A stretch of 39,401 nt of DNA, from UHGV virus genome UHGV-0067872; one strand, 5' to 3'. Positions 1 through 39,401 of the stretch are shown here, piece by piece. The notes under the pieces were generated by a model. It ran no database searches, was not told the DNA's origin, and worked only from the letters and a program-made list of their open reading frames with translations. Numbering within the stretch: the stretch's first letter is position 1; the number at the start of each line of letters is the position of its first letter. The position numbers and the translations under genes are program-made. The DNA is from a virus.

Positions 1-113
1 GGATTTTGCGGACTGGTACGGATTGGAGCGAACTGATAAATGGTGTCCCCTGCAGACATCTACTTGACGAGGCAGGGGATTGATTGGAATGGTGTTTTTT
101 AGATGTGAAAAAT

Positions 114-137
114 ATTTTACCCGCTATTTTACCCATT
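114..137 (+). repeat. Tandem 12-bp direct repeat ATTTTACCC(G/A)(C/T)T x2, each containing TTTTACCC
   Basis: Read directly: TTTTACCC at 115-122 and 127-134; the same octamer recurs three times near the int start at the other window end. Confidence 0.6.
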
Positions 138-329
138 GGCGCGGCTTAAGAGCTTATTTTTGAATTCACAATGGTCACGATATAACCATCTTGCTCGTCC
201 GTGGATAACTTTGGCTTTTGGCAGGTCGCCGGACTTAATCCGGTCGTAGATGAAGGTTTTACCGAAGCCAGTATCGGCCATGATGAATTTCAAATCAACC
301 AGTGAATCAGGCTGTAGTTCATGTTGCAT
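129..329 (-). CDS. AlpA/Xis-family excisionase-like small DNA-binding protein
   Basis: 66-aa ORF; segment IMADTGFGKTFIYDRIKSGDLPKAKVIHGRARW resembles the AlpA/phage excisionase HTH as I recall it; same strand as int across the window junction. Confidence 0.6.
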   Translation of the reverse strand: MQHELQPDSLVDLKFIMADTGFGKTFIYDRIKSGDLPKAKVIHGRARWLYRDHCEFKNKLLSRANG

Positions 330-374
330 GAGTGCTATCTCCGAATAGGGAATCGAACCTGCAAATCAGGCAAT

Positions 375-394
375 AAAAAACCGCCATCAGGCGG
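375..394 (-). terminator. Putative rho-independent terminator (minus strand)
   Basis: Minus-strand transcript forms CCGCC-UGAU-GGCGG followed by U6; stop codon of the 387..554 ORF lies in the loop. Confidence 0.4.
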
Positions 395-554
395 CTTGGT
401 GTTCTTTCAGTTCTTCAATTCGAATATTGGTTACGTCTGCATGCGCTATCTGCGCCCATATCATCCAGTGGTTATGGCAGTCGTTGATGTCCTCTGCTTC
501 GATAACCCTGTCGAATGGCTCTCCATTCCATTCACCTGTGACTCGGAAGTGCAT
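387..554 (-). CDS. Small hypothetical protein (55 aa), absent from the ORF track
   Basis: Hand translation MHFRVTGEWNGEPFDRVIEAEDINDCHNHWMIWAQIAHADVTNIRIEELKEHQAA; GGAG 7 nt upstream of ATG; ends in terminator hairpin. Confidence 0.3.
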   Translation of the reverse strand: MHFRVTGEWNGEPFDRVIEAEDINDCHNHWMIWAQIAHADVTNIRIEELKEHQAA

Positions 555-15210: not shown

Positions 15211-15609
15211 CTCCCTTATGGGGCTTGGCTTAAATGCACTGAGTGCTCTTATCGTTGTGGCAGCACAACGATAGTTTTCGTCAGAGTTGGCGACTTTGCG
15301 GGTTTTTAGAAACTGACCACAAAGATAAATGCAAACGATGATTTGATGTTGATGGCGGCCTAAGAAACCAAAATCACGGGGTCTTCCGACTCCCCGCTAC
15401 CAAATTCGGCGCACTGGCCCGGTGTGATTAATAATGGGCACCCATTCAAACGTACCCTCGGCAGGTTCGATTCCTGACTAGACCCAGATGGCGACGGGGA
15501 GGGTCCAATTGAGTGGGTAACAACGGGCATGTCGCCTTAGTAAATCCCTCAAGGGTGCGACGCATAGACCGGTACTAGCGTCGCCGTTAGCTCCACGAAA
15601 CGGAGCGCA
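15211..15609. other. ORF-free, GC-rich, hairpin-dense segment bounded by a 17-bp direct repeat
   Basis: Direct repeats CAACAGGTAAGAGCATT (15194-15210) and CAACAGGTAAGAGTATT (15610-15626); no ORF of 60 aa or more except one implausible minus-strand frame; perfect 10-bp-stem hairpin at 15250-15273. Confidence 0.3.
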
Positions 15610-16801: not shown

Positions 16802-17235
16802 GCAGAGTCACCGCGATTATCTCCGCTCTGATTATCTGCATCGTCGTCTGTCTGTCATGGGCTGTTAATCATTACCGTGATAACGCCATCGCCTACAAAG
16901 ACCAGCGCGATAAAGCCACATCCATCATCGCTGACATGCAGAAGCGTCAACGTGATGTAGCAGAACTCGACGCCAGATACACAAAGGAGCTTGCTGATGC
17001 TAACGCGACTATCGAAAGTCTCCGTGCTGATGTTTCTGCTGGTCGTAAGCGCCTGCAAGTCTCCGCAACCTGTGCAAAGTCAACGACCGGAGCCAGCAGC
17101 ATGGGCGATGGAGAAAGCCCAAGACTTACAGCAGATGCTGAACTCAATTATTACCGTCTCAGAAGTGGAATCGACAGGATAACCGCGCAGGTTAACTACC
17201 TGCAGGAGTACATCAGGACGCAATGCCTTCGATGA
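16798..17235 (+). CDS. Rz: Spanin inner-membrane subunit Rz
   Basis: N-terminus [31 protein letters not shown] as lambda Rz; C-terminal half divergent. Confidence 0.85.
16991..17182 (+). CDS. Rz1: Spanin outer-membrane lipoprotein Rz1, nested in +1 frame within Rz
   Basis: Signal peptide plus lipobox-like LVVSAC, Pro-rich mature part; embedded like lambda Rz1. Confidence 0.65.
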
Positions 17236-17410
17236 TAGCGATAATTTTACTCATCATCCTTCACATCTGGCTCTGTAGACAGGGTGGTGATCACTTCTGG
17301 AGTAAATCCAGATTAAACATCTCATTGCTGATGCTTGATATTGAGCATCTGGCGCGCAGTAAGGGGCTGCGTTGAGATAAGAGCCAGTCATTACAAACAC
17401 CAGGATTTAG

Positions 17411-17435
17411 CCTCGCATTCGCGGGGTTTTTTATT
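17411..17435 (+). terminator. Putative rho-independent terminator after the lysis cassette
   Basis: CCTCGC-ATTC-GCGGGG followed by TTTTTTATT. Confidence 0.5.
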
Positions 17436-17456
17436 CCCAACTCCATAGGTAATTTT

Positions 17457-17936
17457 ATGACCCAGCATATTGGCGTAAAACTGATTAACGCCTTTCCGAT
17501 GACGAGACAGGCATATAACGATTTTCGTGGCTGGCAGCTTCCTGCCGGAGAAAACGGCGAGGACGAAGGCTATCTGGTTGAATATCTGGATGGCGGAAAA
17601 CCTAACACCGATCGCTTTGATGGCTACGTTAGCTGGAGTCCAAAAGAAGTATTCGAAAAGGCTTATCGTCCGGTATCAGGACTAAGTTTCGGCCTTGCCA
17701 TGGAAGCGTTAAAACAGGGCAAAAGTTTGCAGCGGGCAGGATGGAATGGGAAAGACCAGTTTGTTTATCTCGTGAAAGGGGAAAAATTAGCGTCTGCGTT
17801 GGGTTATGGCTTTGGCGAATATGTTGGCGAGCCAACTTTCAATGACACGCTTGTATTGAAAAACTCACAGAACCGCCTTGCTACATGGGTTCCATCCATT
17901 GGCGACCTGATGGCTGAAGACTGGCAAATCATTTAA
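17457..17936 (+). CDS. Hypothetical protein with C-terminal DUF2829/Tad2-like domain
   Basis: C-terminal half has AMEALKQGKSLQRAGWNGK...FVYLV...WVPSIGDLMAEDWQII, matching my recollection of the DUF2829 consensus; N-terminal 75 aa unassigned. Confidence 0.5.
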   Translation: MTQHIGVKLINAFPMTRQAYNDFRGWQLPAGENGEDEGYLVEYLDGGKPNTDRFDGYVSWSPKEVFEKAYRPVSGLSFGLAMEALKQGKSLQRAGWNGKDQFVYLVKGEKLASALGYGFGEYVGEPTFNDTLVLKNSQNRLATWVPSIGDLMAEDWQII

Positions 17937-18169
17937 CCATGTAGTCATTACAAAGCCCATCAACGGGTGGGCTTGATAATGAAACCGGAATTTATTCTAG
18001 GCAACCAGTTACGGCAGTACCACGAAACAACCCAAGCCAGTAAGTGGGGAAATAACACTGGCAGCCACTGAAAGATGAACCTCCTGCCTTATGGCAAAAA
18101 AGATTCTTTGTGGTGGCGGACTGATGGAAAGACATCCTAATCAAGCAACCACTCCACAGGGTCATAATT

Positions 18170-18550
18170 ATGAACGACCAGCAAATCGAAAAAGAAATCG
18201 TTGAGAAAGGCAAAACGGCACCGCGAATCACCCCGCAGCACATCGAAGACGTGATTAAAAGCGAGCATTACTTTACTGCTTATGATGGACGAAATGGTGC
18301 CATTTCCAGCAACGAATATTGTGGCAGGGAAAAACCAGAAGAAGGCGATCGTGATTTATCACCATTGAAGTTGCTCACTTTCTGCGTACTGGTGCTGAAG
18401 AATGGCTTCACCGTCACCGGAGAGAGTGCCTGTGCAAGCCCGGAAAACTTTGATGCAGAAATTGGTCGGAAGATTGCCCGGCAAAATGCTGTAAACAAAA
18501 TCTGGATGCTCGAAGGTTACTTGCTGAAGCAGAAGCTAAGCGAACAGTAG
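18170..18550 (+). CDS. Conserved phage protein, possibly Gp49-like
   Basis: 126-aa ORF; motif GESACASPENFDAEIGRKIARQNA recalled from phage Gp49-like proteins; tentative. Confidence 0.4.
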   Translation: MNDQQIEKEIVEKGKTAPRITPQHIEDVIKSEHYFTAYDGRNGAISSNEYCGREKPEEGDRDLSPLKLLTFCVLVLKNGFTVTGESACASPENFDAEIGRKIARQNAVNKIWMLEGYLLKQKLSEQ

Positions 18551-18653: not shown

Positions 18654-18896
18654 ATGGCAGAGATTATTCCCATGACTGAAGAACAGAAATTCCAGTTAGA
18701 GATTTACAAACTGGTCATGAACCAGAACGCAGCCGCAGAAGAAGCATTTCAGTTCATTGGCACTGACGAGCTGAAGCTTGAGCTATTCAAAATTCACTTC
18801 CAGTCAGGTGGCGCTAATTCAGATATCACGACGCGCACTATCGAAGCGGTGCGTAAATCTAAGGAAGCGTTAGACCTGTTCACTACCGGAGCATAA
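18654..18896 (+). CDS. Hypothetical protein (80 aa) preceding terminase
   Basis: ORF with SD GGAG; position like small ORFs before TerS in P22-like phages. Confidence 0.45.
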   Translation: MAEIIPMTEEQKFQLEIYKLVMNQNAAAEEAFQFIGTDELKLELFKIHFQSGGANSDITTRTIEAVRKSKEALDLFTTGA

Positions 18897-18898
18897 AC

Positions 18899-19339
18899 AT
18901 GGCGCGCCCAACAAAGTATCAAGAGGCGTATGCCGAACAGGCACGCAAACTGTGCTTGCTGGGCTACACCGATGCAGAGCTTGCTGATTTCTTCGAAGTC
19001 AGTGAGTCAACTATTAACAAGTGGAAGCTTGATTATCCTAAGTTTTCGGAGTCCATAAAAAAGGGTAAGGCCGTCGCTGATGCAGAAGTTAGTGATCGTC
19101 TTTATCAACGCGCTATGGGCTTCGTGGCTCCAGACATCGATATTCGTGTTATTGAAAACAGAATTGTCGAAACTCCGCTTGAGAAGTATTACCCGCCTGA
19201 TACAACAGCTGCCATCTTCTGGCTTAAGAACCGACAGAAGGATAAATGGCGCGACAAGGTTGATCACGAGCTAACAGGCAAAGACGGCGGCGCAATTCAG
19301 ATTGAAACATCACCGATGAGCACTCTATTCGGAAAATGA
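18899..19339 (+). CDS. Terminase small subunit (Sf6 gp1-like)
   Basis: C-terminus ELTGKDGGAIQIETSPMSTLFGK matches my recollection of Sf6 small terminase; N-terminal HTH-like segment. Confidence 0.75.
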   Translation: MARPTKYQEAYAEQARKLCLLGYTDAELADFFEVSESTINKWKLDYPKFSESIKKGKAVADAEVSDRLYQRAMGFVAPDIDIRVIENRIVETPLEKYYPPDTTAAIFWLKNRQKDKWRDKVDHELTGKDGGAIQIETSPMSTLFGK

Positions 19340-20751
19340 CCACGATTAATCCTATCTTTGAACCGTTCATTGAGGCGCATCGCTACAAAGTCGCCAAAGG
19401 CGGTCGAGGTAGCGGTAAGTCATGGGCAATTGCGAGGCTGCTTGTTGAAGCGGCGCGTCGGCAGCCTGTGCGCATACTTTGCGCTCGTGAGCTGCAAAAC
19501 AGTATCAGCGATTCGGTAATCCGGCTGCTTGAAGATACCATCGAGCGTGAAGGGTATTCGGCTGAGTTTGAAATTCAGCGTTCCATGATTCGTCATCTCG
19601 GAACGAATGCTGAGTTCATGTTCTACGGCATCAAAAACAACCCGACGAAGATTAAATCGCTAGAAGGTATTGATATCTGCTGGGTGGAGGAAGCGGAAGC
19701 GGTAACGAAGGAATCATGGGATATCCTGATACCAACCATCCGCAAGCCGTTTTCCGAAATATGGGTGAGCTTTAACCCTAAGAACATCCTCGACGATACC
19801 TATCAGCGATTCGTTGTAAATCCTCCCGATGATATTTGTCTGCTGACGGTGAACTACACCGACAACCCGCACTTTCCTGAAGTTCTCCGTCTGGAGATGG
19901 AAGAGTGTAAACGCAGAAATCCGACACTGTATCGTCACATCTGGCTTGGTGAGCCAGTGAGCGCAAGTGATATGGCAATCATCAAACGTGAATGGCTTGA
20001 AGCCGCAACCGATGCGCACAAGAAACTCGGATGGAAGGCGAAAGGCGCTGTTGTCTCTGCGCATGACCCGTCAGATACAGGACCGGATGCTAAAGGTTAT
20101 GCATCGCGCCACGGTTCGGTAGTTAAGCGCATTGCCGAAGGCCTGCTGATGGACATCAATGAAGGTGCTGACTGGGCAACTTCGCTGGCGATTGAAGACG
20201 GCTCTGACCACTACCTGTGGGATGGTGATGGTGTTGGTGCCGGGCTACGCAGACAGACAACGGAAGCGTTCTCCGGCAAGAAAATCACCGCCACGATGTT
20301 CAAGGGCAGCGAATCGCCATTCGATGAAGATGCGCCATATCAGGCCGGAGCATGGGCTGATGAAGTCGTACAGGGCGACAATGTTCGCACTATTGGCGAT
20401 GTATTCCGCAATAAGCGAGCGCAATTCTATTACGCGCTGGCTGACAGGCTGTATCTGACATATCGGGCGGTTGTTCACGGTGAGTATGCAGACCCAGACG
20501 ACATGCTGAGTTTCGACAAAGAAGCGATAGGCGAGAAGATGCTGGAGAAGCTGTTTGCAGAACTGACGCAGATTCAGCGCAAATTCAATAACAACGGGAA
20601 GCTGGAGCTTATGACTAAGGTCGAAATGAAACAGAAGCTCGGGATTCCATCTCCTAACCTGGCTGATGCGCTGATGATGTGTATGCATTGCCCGGAGTCG
20701 GCTGCGCAACCCGACTATTCCAGTTACTCAATTCCTTGTGGTGTAGGTTGA
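19336..20751 (+). CDS. Terminase large subunit
   Basis: Walker A KGGRGSGKS near N-terminus; size 471 aa; follows TerS with 4-nt overlap. Confidence 0.9.
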   Translation: MTTINPIFEPFIEAHRYKVAKGGRGSGKSWAIARLLVEAARRQPVRILCARELQNSISDSVIRLLEDTIEREGYSAEFEIQRSMIRHLGTNAEFMFYGIKNNPTKIKSLEGIDICWVEEAEAVTKESWDILIPTIRKPFSEIWVSFNPKNILDDTYQRFVVNPPDDICLLTVNYTDNPHFPEVLRLEMEECKRRNPTLYRHIWLGEPVSASDMAIIKREWLEAATDAHKKLGWKAKGAVVSAHDPSDTGPDAKGYASRHGSVVKRIAEGLLMDINEGADWATSLAIEDGSDHYLWDGDGVGAGLRRQTTEAFSGKKITATMFKGSESPFDEDAPYQAGAWADEVVQGDNVRTIGDVFRNKRAQFYYALADRLYLTYRAVVHGEYADPDDMLSFDKEAIGEKMLEKLFAELTQIQRKFNNNGKLELMTKVEMKQKLGIPSPNLADALMMCMHCPESAAQPDYSSYSIPCGVG

Positions 20752-38122: not shown

Positions 38123-39280
38123 TCACTCCACCTTTTCATCAAGCCAGTCCGCCCACCACTGCATCATTTCTCTGCGCTTATCGAGATACTGCGCATGGTT
38201 GTAAATACCGCGCACAGATCCGCCGTTGGCATGTGCCAGTTGCATTTCAATAGCATCAGCAGGCCATTCGTTCTCGTTCATAATCGTGCTGAATTCATGC
38301 CTGAATCCGTGACCGCTTTCCAGACCCTCATAGCCGATTTGTTTGATCACAAGCAATACCGCGTTCTCGCAGATTGGCTTCTTCTTATCGTTGCGCCCGG
38401 CAAAAACAAACTCTGATACTGGTTTGGTGATTGAGCTTAGCGTAGTGAGAAGCTCAACCACCTGGTCTGACATAGGAACAACATGAATCTTGCGGCCCTT
38501 CATCACACTGGCGTCGATGGTGATAATCCTGTTATCAAAATCGACGTTCTTCCATAGCATGGAACGAAGCTCTTTTGTTCTTAGGGCTGTGTAGCGTAAA
38601 ACTTTGGTCGCAATGAGCGATACGATACTTCCTGAAAATGTTGCCAGTGCTTTGTTGAATGCCGGGATCTGGTCTGCAGGAAGAAACGGGAAGTTCTTCT
38701 TGCGGTACCCCTTCATGGCGTCAGCAAGGTCAGGTGCCGGGTTATATTTAGCCCTGCCGGTGACAATAGCGTAACGGAAAACCTCGCCGCATCTTCTGCG
38801 GGCTTTATTTGCTCGCTCCATTGCACCGCGATCTTCAAATCTGCGGATTACTTCCAGCAGTTGCATCGGCTCAATCTCCTGAATTTCAAGGCCGCCGATG
38901 ATAGGTAAAATGTCGTCATCAAACATTTTTGCAAGTTCAGTCGCATACCCTACTGACCATACTTGCTTCTTGTGCTCGTACCATTCCTTGTAAATCGCAC
39001 TAAAGGAATTGTTGTTAGACGAAGCCTTTTTCGCCTTTACCGGATCGATGCCAACCGAGATGTCTTTCCTCGCAGTCCATGCCTTATCCCTTGCCTCCTG
39101 CAAAGTCATTAGCGGATATTTTCCTACGGTCAGGATTTTCTCCTTACCGTCAATCTTGTAGCGAAGCTGCCATACCTTTTTCCCGGATACAGGGACATAA
39201 AGGTACAGGCCATTACCATCGAGAAGGCGGTATGGTTTTTCTTTCGGCTTTGCTGCTTCAATCTGCTTAACAGTGAGCAT
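38123..39280 (-). CDS. int: Tyrosine integrase
   Basis: Track ORF 38123..39316 (GTG); I prefer ATG 39280 giving MLTVKQIEAAKPKEKPYRLLDGNGLYLYV; C-terminal HGFRHEF...IYNHAQY catalytic region. Confidence 0.9.
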   Translation of the reverse strand: MLTVKQIEAAKPKEKPYRLLDGNGLYLYVPVSGKKVWQLRYKIDGKEKILTVGKYPLMTLQEARDKAWTARKDISVGIDPVKAKKASSNNNSFSAIYKEWYEHKKQVWSVGYATELAKMFDDDILPIIGGLEIQEIEPMQLLEVIRRFEDRGAMERANKARRRCGEVFRYAIVTGRAKYNPAPDLADAMKGYRKKNFPFLPADQIPAFNKALATFSGSIVSLIATKVLRYTALRTKELRSMLWKNVDFDNRIITIDASVMKGRKIHVVPMSDQVVELLTTLSSITKPVSEFVFAGRNDKKKPICENAVLLVIKQIGYEGLESGHGFRHEFSTIMNENEWPADAIEMQLAHANGGSVRGIYNHAQYLDKRREMMQWWADWLDEKVE

Positions 39281-39325
39281 GGGTAAAAATCCGGTGGGTA
39301 AAATTATTTTATCCACTTTTTACCC
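39281..39325. repeat. Three TTTTACCC octamers (two on minus, one on plus) just upstream of int
   Basis: GGGTAAAA at 39281-39288 and 39296-39303; TTTTACCC at 39318-39325; same octamer as the tandem repeat at 114-137. Confidence 0.55.
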
Positions 39326-39401
39326 GTCATGGAGTGCGGCTGTCAACGATCTGACGCGAACCATTACGAACTGTGAATCTACGGAAGGCTTGATATTCAG
39401 G

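What the first reader, a model, noticed from the sequence alone, without database searches (positions are those of the whole stretch)
39281..39401. TTTTACCC octamer array spanning the window junction between int and the xis-like gene
Three copies of TTTTACCC in mixed orientation lie within 45 bp upstream of the int start (39281-39325). Two more occur as a 12-bp tandem repeat at 114-137, just beyond the xis-like gene at the other end of the window. If the two ends are contiguous in the phage, this is a five-site array in the roughly 210-bp xis-int spacer, plausibly binding sites for the AlpA-like protein or Int arm-type sites. I could not identify an attP core or tRNA 3' fragment at either end.
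Basis: seen in the sequence. Interest (0 to 1): 0.38.

Follow-up and report, generated by a model that had tools for sequence, protein, structure and literature searches.

The report
Integrase arm sites in phage attP

Summary
TTTTACCC occurs 8 times in the window against about 1 expected, and 5 copies lie in one 255-bp stretch across the window junction. A sixth, degenerate copy (TTTTATCC, 39307-39314) lies there too. The window ends are exactly adjacent in 15 related phage records.

The stretch is the attP of a P22-like phage. Its integrase is 99% identical to E. coli K-12 IntS and its excisionase is 100% identical to TorI. In 1,900 E. coli genomes the junction splits exactly there.

HK620's GenBank record already marks these repeats as attP repeats. 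Published KplE1 work defines IntS arm-type sites (all contain TAAA; P'1 overlaps the int -10 box). It also defines separate TorI sites (GTTCG-type), which I located between the octamers and the core.

In 31 diverged relatives the motif is either GGGTAAA or GGGCA, never both. It switches on both arms together, with the integrase N-terminal domain and independently of the excisionase repeats. Phage P4 has the same layout.

Verdict: these are integrase arm-type sites, which probably also act as int autorepression operators. They are not excisionase sites. The feature is already known and of low interest.

The parts
127..134 (+). Arm-type octamer TTTTACCC on the P arm (xis side). It reads GGGTAAAA in the int direction and overlaps the xis GGG-TAA stop.
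   Evidence: It lies inside HK620's annotated attP repeat 1441-1463, which maps to window 113-135. It switches to GGGCATA in phiEt88 and g341c.
115..122 (+). Arm-type octamer TTTTACCC on the P arm, 12 bp from the previous copy and 60-67 bp from the core.
   Evidence: HK620 annotation; co-variation.
73..85 (-). Near-consensus IHF-like match AATCAATCCCCTG (1 mismatch to WATCAANNNNTTR) between the P-arm octamers and the core. It contains an inverted copy of the core half-site (CCCCTGC).
   Evidence: CCCCTGC is kept in all six intact attPs. The function is inferred, not shown.
40..55 (-). attP core/identity block CTGCAGGGGACACCAT, which is the 3' end of tRNA-Arg(CCU) argW.
   Evidence: It is identical at K-12 attL and attR. 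E. coli genome matches to the junction query break at query positions 291-307, which map to window 39-55. HK620 and Sf6 annotate an 'attP core' here. Kapi1's att site is AATGGTGTCCCCTGCAG.
28..35 (-). TorI (excisionase) site I1, CAGTTCGC.
   Evidence: Mapped from the KplE1 coordinates in PMC2951348 onto K-12 and then onto the window.
8..15 (-). TorI site I2, CAGTCCGC, 12 nt from I1.
39346..39373 (-). TorI sites I3 (39366-39373), I4 (39356-39363) and I5 (39346-39353), 2 nt apart and abutting the -35 box.
   Evidence: conserved GTTCG cores in relatives.
39341..39346 (-). -35 box TTGACA of the int promoter (PintS).
   Evidence: The hexamers are given in PMC2951348. The box is invariant in 13 diverged sequences. 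It lies inside HK620's 'prophage excision' promoter 1224-1273, which maps to window 39297-39346.
39318..39325 (+). Arm-type octamer on the P' arm. It reads GGGTAAAA in the int direction and overlaps the -10 box TAAAAA (39317-39322), so it corresponds to KplE1 P'1.
   Evidence: PMC2951348 states that P'1 overlaps the -10 box and that all P' sites contain TAAA. Seven of eight columns are invariant.
39307..39314 (+). Degenerate sixth copy TTTTATCC, which reads GGATAAAA in the int direction and lies 11 bp from the previous site.
   Evidence: It aligns with a GGGTAAA- or GAGTAAA-type copy in relatives. It lies within HK620's attP repeat 1232-1253.
39296..39303 (-). Arm-type octamer on the P' arm, in the opposite orientation (reads TTTTACCC in the int direction).
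   Evidence: HK620 attP repeat 1207-1232.
39281..39288 (-). Arm-type octamer on the P' arm, directly abutting the int ATG.
   Evidence: All eight columns are invariant in 13 diverged sequences. P4 has an arm repeat at the equivalent position.
38123..39280 (-). int: a 385-aa tyrosine integrase with an N-terminal arm-DNA-binding domain, 99% identical to K-12 IntS.
   Evidence: Pfam Arm-DNA-bind_3 (residues 2-86), Phage_int_M and Phage_integrase. 381 of 385 residues are identical to IntS, and residues 1-134 are identical.
129..329 (-). xis: a 66-aa recombination directionality factor, 100% identical to TorI/HkaC.
   Evidence: PDB 1Z4H 'Tor inhibition protein'.

Best explanation
The octamers are the arm-type binding sites of the phage integrase within attP.

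The window is a whole P22-like phage genome that was opened inside its attachment site. Read in the direction of xis and int transcription, the order is:
- the end of xis;
- two direct GGGTAAAA sites (P arm);
- an IHF-like site;
- the 16-bp core, which is the 3' end of argW;
- five TorI sites;
- the int promoter;
- four arm sites (P' arm): two as GGGTAAAA/GGATAAAA and two inverted as TTTTACCC;
- the int ATG.

The N-terminal arm-binding domain of Int (residues 2-86) binds the octamers while the catalytic domain binds the core. With DNA bending by IHF, this bridges the arms to the core and builds the intasome that recombines attP with argW. After integration the two xis-side sites end up in attR and the four int-side sites in attL. 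TorI bound to its own GTTCG-type sites in attL then directs excision.

The int-side sites also cover the -10 box, the 5' leader and the start codon of int, so Int binding there represses its own promoter.

What is shown here: the sequence layout, near-identity to KplE1, the split at the core in integrated copies, and the co-variation. What is taken from published KplE1 work: the TorI sites, the P' sites, and the repression of PintS. What is inferred: Int binding to the two P-arm copies, the role of the sixth site, and the IHF site.
For: 1. Enrichment and clustering: 8 copies against 0.99 expected, with 5 in 255 bp.
2. Int carries Pfam Arm-DNA-bind_3 (E = 2e-25) plus a tyrosine recombinase catalytic domain. 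It is 99% identical to IntS, and residues 1-134 are identical. xis is 100% identical to TorI.
3. The junction DNA is nearly base-for-base the same as KplE1 attR (phage side) joined to attL, including all octamers, all TorI sites and the -35 and -10 boxes.
4. PMC2951348 reports that attL carries IntS arm-type P' sites that all contain TAAA, and that P'1 overlaps the -10 box. It also reports five TorI sites of GTTCG/GATCG/GTCCG type and repression of PintS about 5-fold by each of IntS and TorI.
5. The HK620 record annotates exactly these stretches as attP repeats and annotates the core.
6. In 1,900 of 5,426 E. coli genomes the junction is split at window 39-55, next to tRNA-Arg on the int side and torI on the other side. 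The Kapi1 paper gives the same att site and places attP between int and xis.
7. In 13 sequences with 76-87% Int N-domain identity, mean column conservation is 0.96-1.00 for the three exact int-side octamers. It is 0.80 for the degenerate copy and 0.73 for the unassigned spacer.
8. Co-variation. Across 31 loci, 22 carry GGGTAAA-type repeats and 9 carry GGGCA-type repeats, and none carries both. The split follows Int N-domain identity to the window (at least 58% against at most 57%). In intact attPs the motif switches on both arms together.
9. Independent assortment. phiEt88 and g341c share the GGGCATA arm motif. Their excisionase-type repeats differ (GTWACC against GTTCK), in line with differences in the region I take to be the excisionase DNA-recognition helix.
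10. Phage P4, whose Int is 35% identical, has the same layout annotated as 'attP arm sequence repeat'.
Against: - No binding experiment exists for this particular phage.
- I could not read the two primary mapping papers (Panis 2007 JBC; Panis 2010 Virology). The number and numbering of the P' sites, and experimental proof for the two P-arm sites, therefore rest on the HK620 annotation, the PLoS Genet text and co-variation.
- In the KplE1 reporter assays, single mutations of P' sites other than P'1 did not relieve repression, so the regulatory role of individual sites is unclear.
- The N-domain identity ranges of the two motif classes nearly touch (58% against 57%).
- The generic promoter scan did not call the published PintS hexamers, because the -10 box TAAAAA lacks the final T that the scan requires. 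It reported a weaker overlapping candidate instead.
Confidence: 0.9

Rival explanations
1. The octamers are binding sites for the excisionase (the AlpA-like protein, TorI), arranged as in lambda's Xis arrays.
For: They are short repeats, partly tandem with a spacing of about one helical turn (12 bp). They sit next to xis and within attP.
Against: TorI's sites in the near-identical KplE1 attL are GTTCG/GTCCG/GATCG 8-mers, and mutating them abolishes TorI repression. All five are present elsewhere in the window spacer. Two phages that share the GGGCATA arm motif have different excisionase-type repeats and different excisionase helix sequences, whereas the arm motif follows the Int N-domain. The octamers occur on both sides of the core and in both orientations, unlike the unidirectional filament-type arrays typical of excisionases.
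Confidence: 0.03
2. The int-proximal copies are only transcriptional operators or promoter elements for int and play no part in recombination. On this view the xis-side pair is unrelated.
For: One copy overlaps the -10 box, others lie in the leader and at the ATG, and IntS represses PintS about 5-fold.
Against: The same motif recurs as a pair about 250 bp upstream, across the core, where no promoter is annotated. That pair changes to GGGCATA in step with the int-side copies in diverged phages. P4 has the same two-arm layout, annotated as attP arm repeats. Autoregulation is better read as a second use of the arm sites than as an alternative to recombination.
Confidence: 0.05
3. The cluster is a chance or compositional effect of an AT-rich intergenic spacer.
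For: One-mismatch matches are generally in excess across the window (51 against 27 expected), so the shuffles may underestimate the background. Three exact copies lie elsewhere in the window.
Against: Five exact copies in 255 bp has a probability of about 1e-13. The sites are invariant islands in spacers that are otherwise diverged. The motif shows coordinated switching across 31 loci.
Confidence: 0.01

Closest known systems
KplE1 (CPS-53) prophage recombination module of E. coli K-12: IntS, TorI, attL/attR at argW (Panis et al. 2007, 2010; PMC2951348)
   Same: Int is 99% identical and the excisionase 100% identical. The attP reconstructed from attR plus attL is nearly base-identical, including every octamer, all five TorI sites, the core and the -35 and -10 boxes.
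   Different: KplE1 is a 10-kb defective prophage, known only in its integrated form. The window is a full-length P22-like phage genome carrying the uninterrupted attP. A few point differences lie in the spacer outside the mapped sites.
attP of coliphage HK620 and Shigella phage Sf6 (Clark et al. 2001; Casjens et al. 2004; GenBank AF335538, AF547987)
   Same: The 602-nt junction is 97.5-97.7% identical. HK620's record annotates attP repeats at positions that map to window 39280-39305, 39305-39326 and 113-135, and an attP core that maps to 40-55. Sf6 annotates the same core and an int promoter.
   Different: The rest of the genome is mosaic; the best overall match is Kapi1, at 57% coverage of the first 25 kb. 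These records call the features repeats without naming the protein that binds them.
Satellite phage P4 attP (arm sequence repeats annotated in X51522)
   Same: The integrase subfamily is the same (Arm-DNA-bind_3 N-domain; 35% identity). The layout is also the same: two tandem 12-bp repeats about 55-95 bp beyond the core, two tandem repeats plus an inverted one at the int ATG, and one more inside int.
   Different: The motif is GGGGGCAT rather than GGGTAAAA. The core and target tRNA differ (the P4 core is GAGTCCGGCCTTCGGCACCA). P4 has no sixth site next to the promoter pair in the annotation.
Phage lambda attP (P1, P2, P'1-P'3 arm-type sites; the heterobivalent Int paradigm)
   Same: The principle is the same: an N-terminal domain binds repeated arm sites on both sides of a core bound by the catalytic domain, assisted by IHF and an excisionase.
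   Different: Here attP lies between xis and int, so the two genes are separated by integration. The excisionase sites are on the int (P') arm, in attL. int has its own promoter inside attL and is repressed by Int and TorI. The arm-binding domain family and the motif also differ.

Membership tests
IntS/TorI argW recombination module (KplE1/HK620/Sf6 type) | Integrase orthologous to IntS | tested here: met
   381 of 385 residues are identical to K-12 IntS.
IntS/TorI argW recombination module (KplE1/HK620/Sf6 type) | Recombination directionality factor orthologous to TorI/HkaC | tested here: met
   66 of 66 residues are identical to TorI. PDB 1Z4H matches at E = 7e-43.
IntS/TorI argW recombination module (KplE1/HK620/Sf6 type) | attP lies between xis and int, with a core identical to the 3' end of tRNA-Arg argW | tested here: met
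   The core lies at window 40-55 and matches argW nucleotides 61-75 plus one further base. Integrated copies break exactly there. The Kapi1 paper agrees.
IntS/TorI argW recombination module (KplE1/HK620/Sf6 type) | Five GTTCG-type TorI sites in two blocks on the int side of the core | tested here: met
   All five 8-mers are present with the published spacings: 12 nt between I1 and I2, and 2 nt between I3, I4 and I5.
IntS/TorI argW recombination module (KplE1/HK620/Sf6 type) | int promoter inside attL with an arm-type site over the -10 box | tested here: met
   TTGACA lies at 39341-39346, followed by an 18-nt spacer and TAAAAA at 39317-39322. The -10 box overlaps the octamer at 39318-39325.
Heterobivalent tyrosine-integrase attP with arm-type sites (lambda/P4 paradigm) | Integrase has a separate N-terminal arm-DNA-binding domain | tested here: met
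   Pfam PF13356 Arm-DNA-bind_3 covers residues 2-86 at 89 bits, against a cutoff of 27.
Heterobivalent tyrosine-integrase attP with arm-type sites (lambda/P4 paradigm) | Repeats of one motif, distinct from the core sequence, on both sides of the core | tested here: met
   Two copies lie 60-79 bp on the xis side of the core. Four lie 131-175 bp on the int side.
Heterobivalent tyrosine-integrase attP with arm-type sites (lambda/P4 paradigm) | The arm motif co-evolves with the integrase N-domain rather than with the excisionase | tested here: met
   The 22/9 partition across 31 loci has no mixed cases. Both arms switch together, and the excisionase repeats assort independently.
Heterobivalent tyrosine-integrase attP with arm-type sites (lambda/P4 paradigm) | Direct binding of the Int N-domain to the repeats, and a requirement for them in recombination | not testable with these tools
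   This is available only by transfer from KplE1 biochemistry. The primary mapping papers are not held in the library.
Excisionase (Xis/TorI) binding array | The motif matches the excisionase's mapped recognition sequence | tested here: not met
   TorI sites are GTTCG/GTCCG/GATCG. The octamers share nothing with these and lie elsewhere.
   No Pfam family matches at E <= 0.001. An Erwinia phage homologue is annotated as COG3311 AlpA by its depositors, so the label is a loose family resemblance only.

The most novel reading that the evidence does not exclude
Elements that integrate at tRNA-Arg genes and encode IntS-type integrases use at least two discrete arm-site 'dialects', GGGTAAAA and GGGCATA. 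The second resembles P4's GGGGGCAT. All six positions of a fixed attP scaffold switch together with the integrase N-terminal domain, and independently of the excisionase and its repeats. If this holds, it gives a natural swap series from which a recognition code for the Arm-DNA-bind_3 domain could be read. It could also explain how several elements that target the same attB keep their intasomes from cross-talking, as in the tandem arrays seen in 17 E. coli genomes. The co-variation itself is observed here. Whether it is undescribed, and whether it insulates co-resident elements, is not established.
Probability: 0.35. Interest if true: 0.3.

Novelty: already known. Interest (0 to 1): 0.08.

Why it matters
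The main value is for annotation:
- It shows that the window is a complete phage genome opened 39 bp from its attachment-site core.
- It fixes the integration target as the 3' end of argW.
- It assigns each repeat class in the 249-bp xis-int spacer to a binding protein.

The finding adds no new biology beyond the KplE1, HK620, Sf6 and P4 literature. The comparative table of two arm-motif classes is a small by-product. It could guide domain-swap experiments on integrase arm recognition.

Tried and rejected
- ARAGORN and Rfam (gathering thresholds) found no tRNA or other RNA family in the window. The tRNA fragment at the core had to be found by alignment with K-12 argW.
- Pfam found nothing for the 66-aa xis. 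Identity to TorI was established by direct comparison and by PDB search instead.
- The two primary papers that mapped the IntS, TorI and IHF sites are not held in the library (JBC 2007, Virology 2010). I used the open PLoS Genetics 2010 and Viruses 2012 papers.
- My first fetch of K-12 used the coordinates printed in the paper, which belong to an older genome version, and landed on unrelated genes. I refetched using the CPS-53 feature.
- The viral-contig scan with Int returned only relatives at 98% identity or more, mostly truncated at the att site. It was uninformative about divergence. The genome-contig scan and a tblastn search of the phage collection gave the diverged set.
- The generic promoter scan did not report the published PintS hexamers, because TAAAAA fails the scan's requirement for a T at position 6.
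- I considered replication iterons and rejected them. The same sites are kept in the KplE1 remnant prophage, and they sit on either side of an att core.
- I considered that the inverted CCCCTGC copy 18 nt upstream of the core might be the second core-type site. The strand-exchange region must lie within the 16-bp block shared with attB, so this is unlikely. The element is left as an unexplained conserved feature or part of an IHF site.

Full report
**Observation.** The window holds 8 exact copies against 0.99 expected from dinucleotide-preserving shuffles, and no shuffle reached 8. Five of them fall in a 255-bp interval of the circularised sequence, with a Poisson probability of about 9e-14. 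The repeat finder extends the units to TATTTTACCC (two copies, 12-bp spacing), TGGGTAAAA (two copies, 15-bp spacing) and a 9-bp inverted pair. A sixth copy with one mismatch, TTTTATCC, lies at 39307-39314.

Four details need correcting. The octamer at 127-134 overlaps the last Gly codon and the stop codon of xis (ORF 129-329). The octamer at 39281-39288 abuts the int ATG (39278-39280). The spacer is 249 bp rather than about 210 bp. The array therefore has six sites, not five.

**Contiguity.** The last 1.2 kb and the first 0.7 kb of the window match consecutive coordinates in many phage records. Examples are HF4s 18784-19985 followed by 19986-20617, HK620 127-1328 followed by 1329-1762, and Sf6 16858-18059 followed by 18060-18497. 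A 602-nt query built across the junction aligns as a single piece at 96.8-98.0% identity in 15 phage records. The window as a whole is a mosaic P22-like genome that runs from xis at one end to int at the other. Its nearest overall relative is Kapi1, at 57% coverage of the first 25 kb.

**What the locus is.** The int product (385 aa, 38123-39280, minus strand) has Pfam Arm-DNA-bind_3 at residues 2-86, followed by Phage_int_M and Phage_integrase domains. It matches K-12 IntS of the cryptic prophage CPS-53/KplE1 at 381 of 385 residues, and residues 1-134 are identical. The xis product is identical at 66 of 66 residues to TorI, whose structure is PDB 1Z4H.

I aligned the junction, read in the int direction, with the K-12 prophage ends. 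It equals attR (the end of torI through the core) joined to attL (the core through the intS ATG), with only a few substitutions. The shared block is CTGCAGGGGACACCAT at window 40-55 on the minus strand.

Integrated copies give independent confirmation. In 1,900 of 5,426 complete E. coli genomes the junction query matches in two halves. Query positions 1-307 lie next to tRNA-Arg and intS, and positions 291/293-602 lie next to torI. The halves overlap at query 291-307, which maps to window 39-55. The Kapi1 paper reports the same duplicated att sequence, AATGGTGTCCCCTGCAG, and notes that attP lies between int and xis as in Sf6, HK620 and KplE1 (PMC8787464).

**Prior knowledge of the repeats.** The HK620 GenBank record annotates 'attP' repeat regions at 1207-1232, 1232-1253 and 1441-1463, and an 'attP core' at 1368-1383. 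These map to window 39280-39305, 39305-39326, 113-135 and 40-55, which are exactly the octamer groups and the core. It also annotates a 'prophage excision' promoter at 1224-1273, which maps to window 39297-39346. Sf6 carries matching annotations.

For KplE1, Panis et al. (PLoS Genet 2010, PMC2951348) describe the attL region in detail:
- It holds five TorI sites. I1 and I2 are 12 nt apart, and I3-I5 are 2 nt apart. Their cores are GTTCG, GATCG and GTCCG.
- It holds IntS arm-type P' sites that all contain TAAA, with P'1 overlapping the -10 box.
- The sigma-70 promoter has TTGACA and TAaAAa hexamers.
- IntS and TorI each repress PintS about 5-fold.

After converting their coordinates I found every element in the window:

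| Element | Window coordinates |
|---|---|
| TorI site I1 | 28-35 |
| TorI site I2 | 8-15 |
| TorI site I3 | 39366-39373 |
| TorI site I4 | 39356-39363 |
| TorI site I5 | 39346-39353 |
| -35 box | 39341-39346 |
| -10 box | 39317-39322 |

The -10 box overlaps the octamer at 39318-39325, which therefore corresponds to P'1. The Viruses 2012 paper states that HkaC (HK620) and P18 (Sf6) are 100% identical to TorI and that the module is conserved among argW-integrating phages (PMC3509656).

**Comparative tests run here.** A genome-contig scan with Int returned argW-adjacent homologues in Citrobacter, Dryocola, Pantoea, Edwardsiella, Rouxiella, Erwinia, Serratia, Tatumella, Mixta, Xenorhabdus and other genera. 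In 13 sequences whose Int N-domain is 76-87% identical to the window's, mean column conservation was as follows:

| Region | Mean column conservation |
|---|---|
| Three exact int-side octamers | 0.96-1.00 |
| Degenerate sixth copy | 0.80 |
| -35 box | 1.00 |
| TorI sites | 0.84-0.93 |
| Unassigned spacer | 0.73 |

The degenerate sixth copy aligns with a GGGTAAA- or GAGTAAA-type copy in relatives, and in Edwardsiella the copy is perfect.

More diverged relatives keep the same layout but replace the motif with GGGCAT(A). Across 31 loci, 22 have only GGGTAAA-type repeats and 9 have only GGGCA-type repeats. The split follows Int N-domain identity to the window, at least 58% against at most 57%.

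Five diverged phages have an intact attP: Klebsiella Chronis, Erwinia Midgardsormr38, vB_EhrS_49 and phiEt88, and Salmonella g341c. In these the xis-side pair and the int-side group switch motif together. phiEt88 and g341c share the GGGCATA arm motif but differ in their excisionase-type repeats (GTWACC against GTTCK). The region I take to be g341c's excisionase recognition helix (GMGKTFIYSEIKKG) is close to TorI's (GFGKTFIYDRIKSG), while phiEt88's (GFTSKYFYSQIKAG) is not. So the octamers track the integrase N-domain and the GTTCG repeats track the excisionase.

Phage P4, whose Int is 35% identical, has the same architecture annotated as 'attP arm sequence repeat'. It has two tandem 12-bp repeats beyond the core, two more plus an inverted one at the int ATG, and one inside int. 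Its motif is GGGGGCAT.

**Mechanism.** The best-supported reading is the standard model for a heterobivalent tyrosine recombinase. The Int N-domain binds the six arm sites and the catalytic domain binds the core. Bending by a host factor brings the arms to the core; a near-consensus IHF match lies at 73-85. Integration into argW then leaves the two xis-side sites in attR and the four int-side sites in attL. TorI bound to its own sites in attL directs excision.

The int-side sites span the -10 box, the leader and the start codon, so they also serve as autorepression operators, as shown for KplE1. The steps transferred from KplE1 or inferred are marked as such in the explanation section. No binding assay exists for this phage itself.

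**Rivals.** Excisionase binding is contradicted by the mapped TorI sites and by the independent assortment described above. A purely promoter or operator role does not explain the co-varying pair across the core. Chance is excluded by the statistics, the conservation and the co-variation.

**Verdict.** The 'AlpA-like protein' alternative is not, and the core is present at 40-55. The feature is already known and of low interest.

Noticed in passing
window 349-364 (minus strand), just upstream of the xis ATG at 329: TTGCAGGTTCGATTCC is a 16-nt exact match to the T-arm of argW (nucleotides 46-61). That segment ends at the first base of the core segment of the tRNA gene, but here it lies about 290 bp from the core. 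The 13-mer AGGTTCGATTCCC also sits upstream of xis in K-12 torI, Erwinia phage Midgardsormr38 (two tandem copies) and phiEt88. It is absent in Chronis, EhrS49 and g341c. It does not co-vary with the excisionase repeats. HK620 annotates a 'phage integration' promoter and a cII site (TTGC-N5-TTGC, window 361-373) in this region. Its function is unknown.
   Followed up: partly
window 72-79 and 73-85 (minus strand): An 8-bp inverted copy of the core half-site (TCCCCTGC) lies 18 nt upstream of the core's GCAGGGGA, inside a near-consensus IHF match AATCAATCCCCTG. CCCCTGC is kept in all six intact attPs examined, including the GGGCATA-class phages, while the spacer between it and the core diverges. 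It may be the IHF site or an extra core-type Int site.
   Followed up: partly
L161 (NZ_CP075374.1 1556165-1562766); window junction: 17 of 5,426 complete E. coli genomes carry the uninterrupted torI-attP-intS junction inside the chromosome, with additional half-matches in the same genome. This is what tandem argW-integrating elements would give.
   Followed up: partly
window 15459-15487 (+): GGCAGGTTCGATTCCTGACTAGACCCA looks like the 3' end (T-arm plus acceptor) of a tRNA and includes a 16-nt match to argW. ARAGORN and Rfam call no tRNA anywhere in the window. It is probably a decayed tRNA; the Kapi1 paper reports tRNAs immediately before its lysis module.
   Followed up: partly
window 39397-39401 joined to 1-136 (minus strand): The small ORF annotated as hkaB in HK620 and gene 17 in Sf6 runs across the window junction, the attP core and the two P-arm octamers. 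Integration would split it, so it is doubtful as a gene.
   Followed up: no
window 378-397 (minus strand): There is an intrinsic-terminator-like hairpin (AAGCCGCC-TGAT-GGCGGTTT followed by a T run) immediately upstream of the xis promoter region. Leftward early transcripts may need antitermination to reach xis and int.
   Followed up: no
window 38903-38910 (minus strand), and the whole window: A one-mismatch copy (TTTTACCT) inside int coincides with a fourth 'attP' repeat in HK620's annotation (829-839), and P4 also has an arm repeat inside int. Separately, one-mismatch matches to the octamer are in excess window-wide (51 against 27 expected). That excess is unexplained.
   Followed up: no
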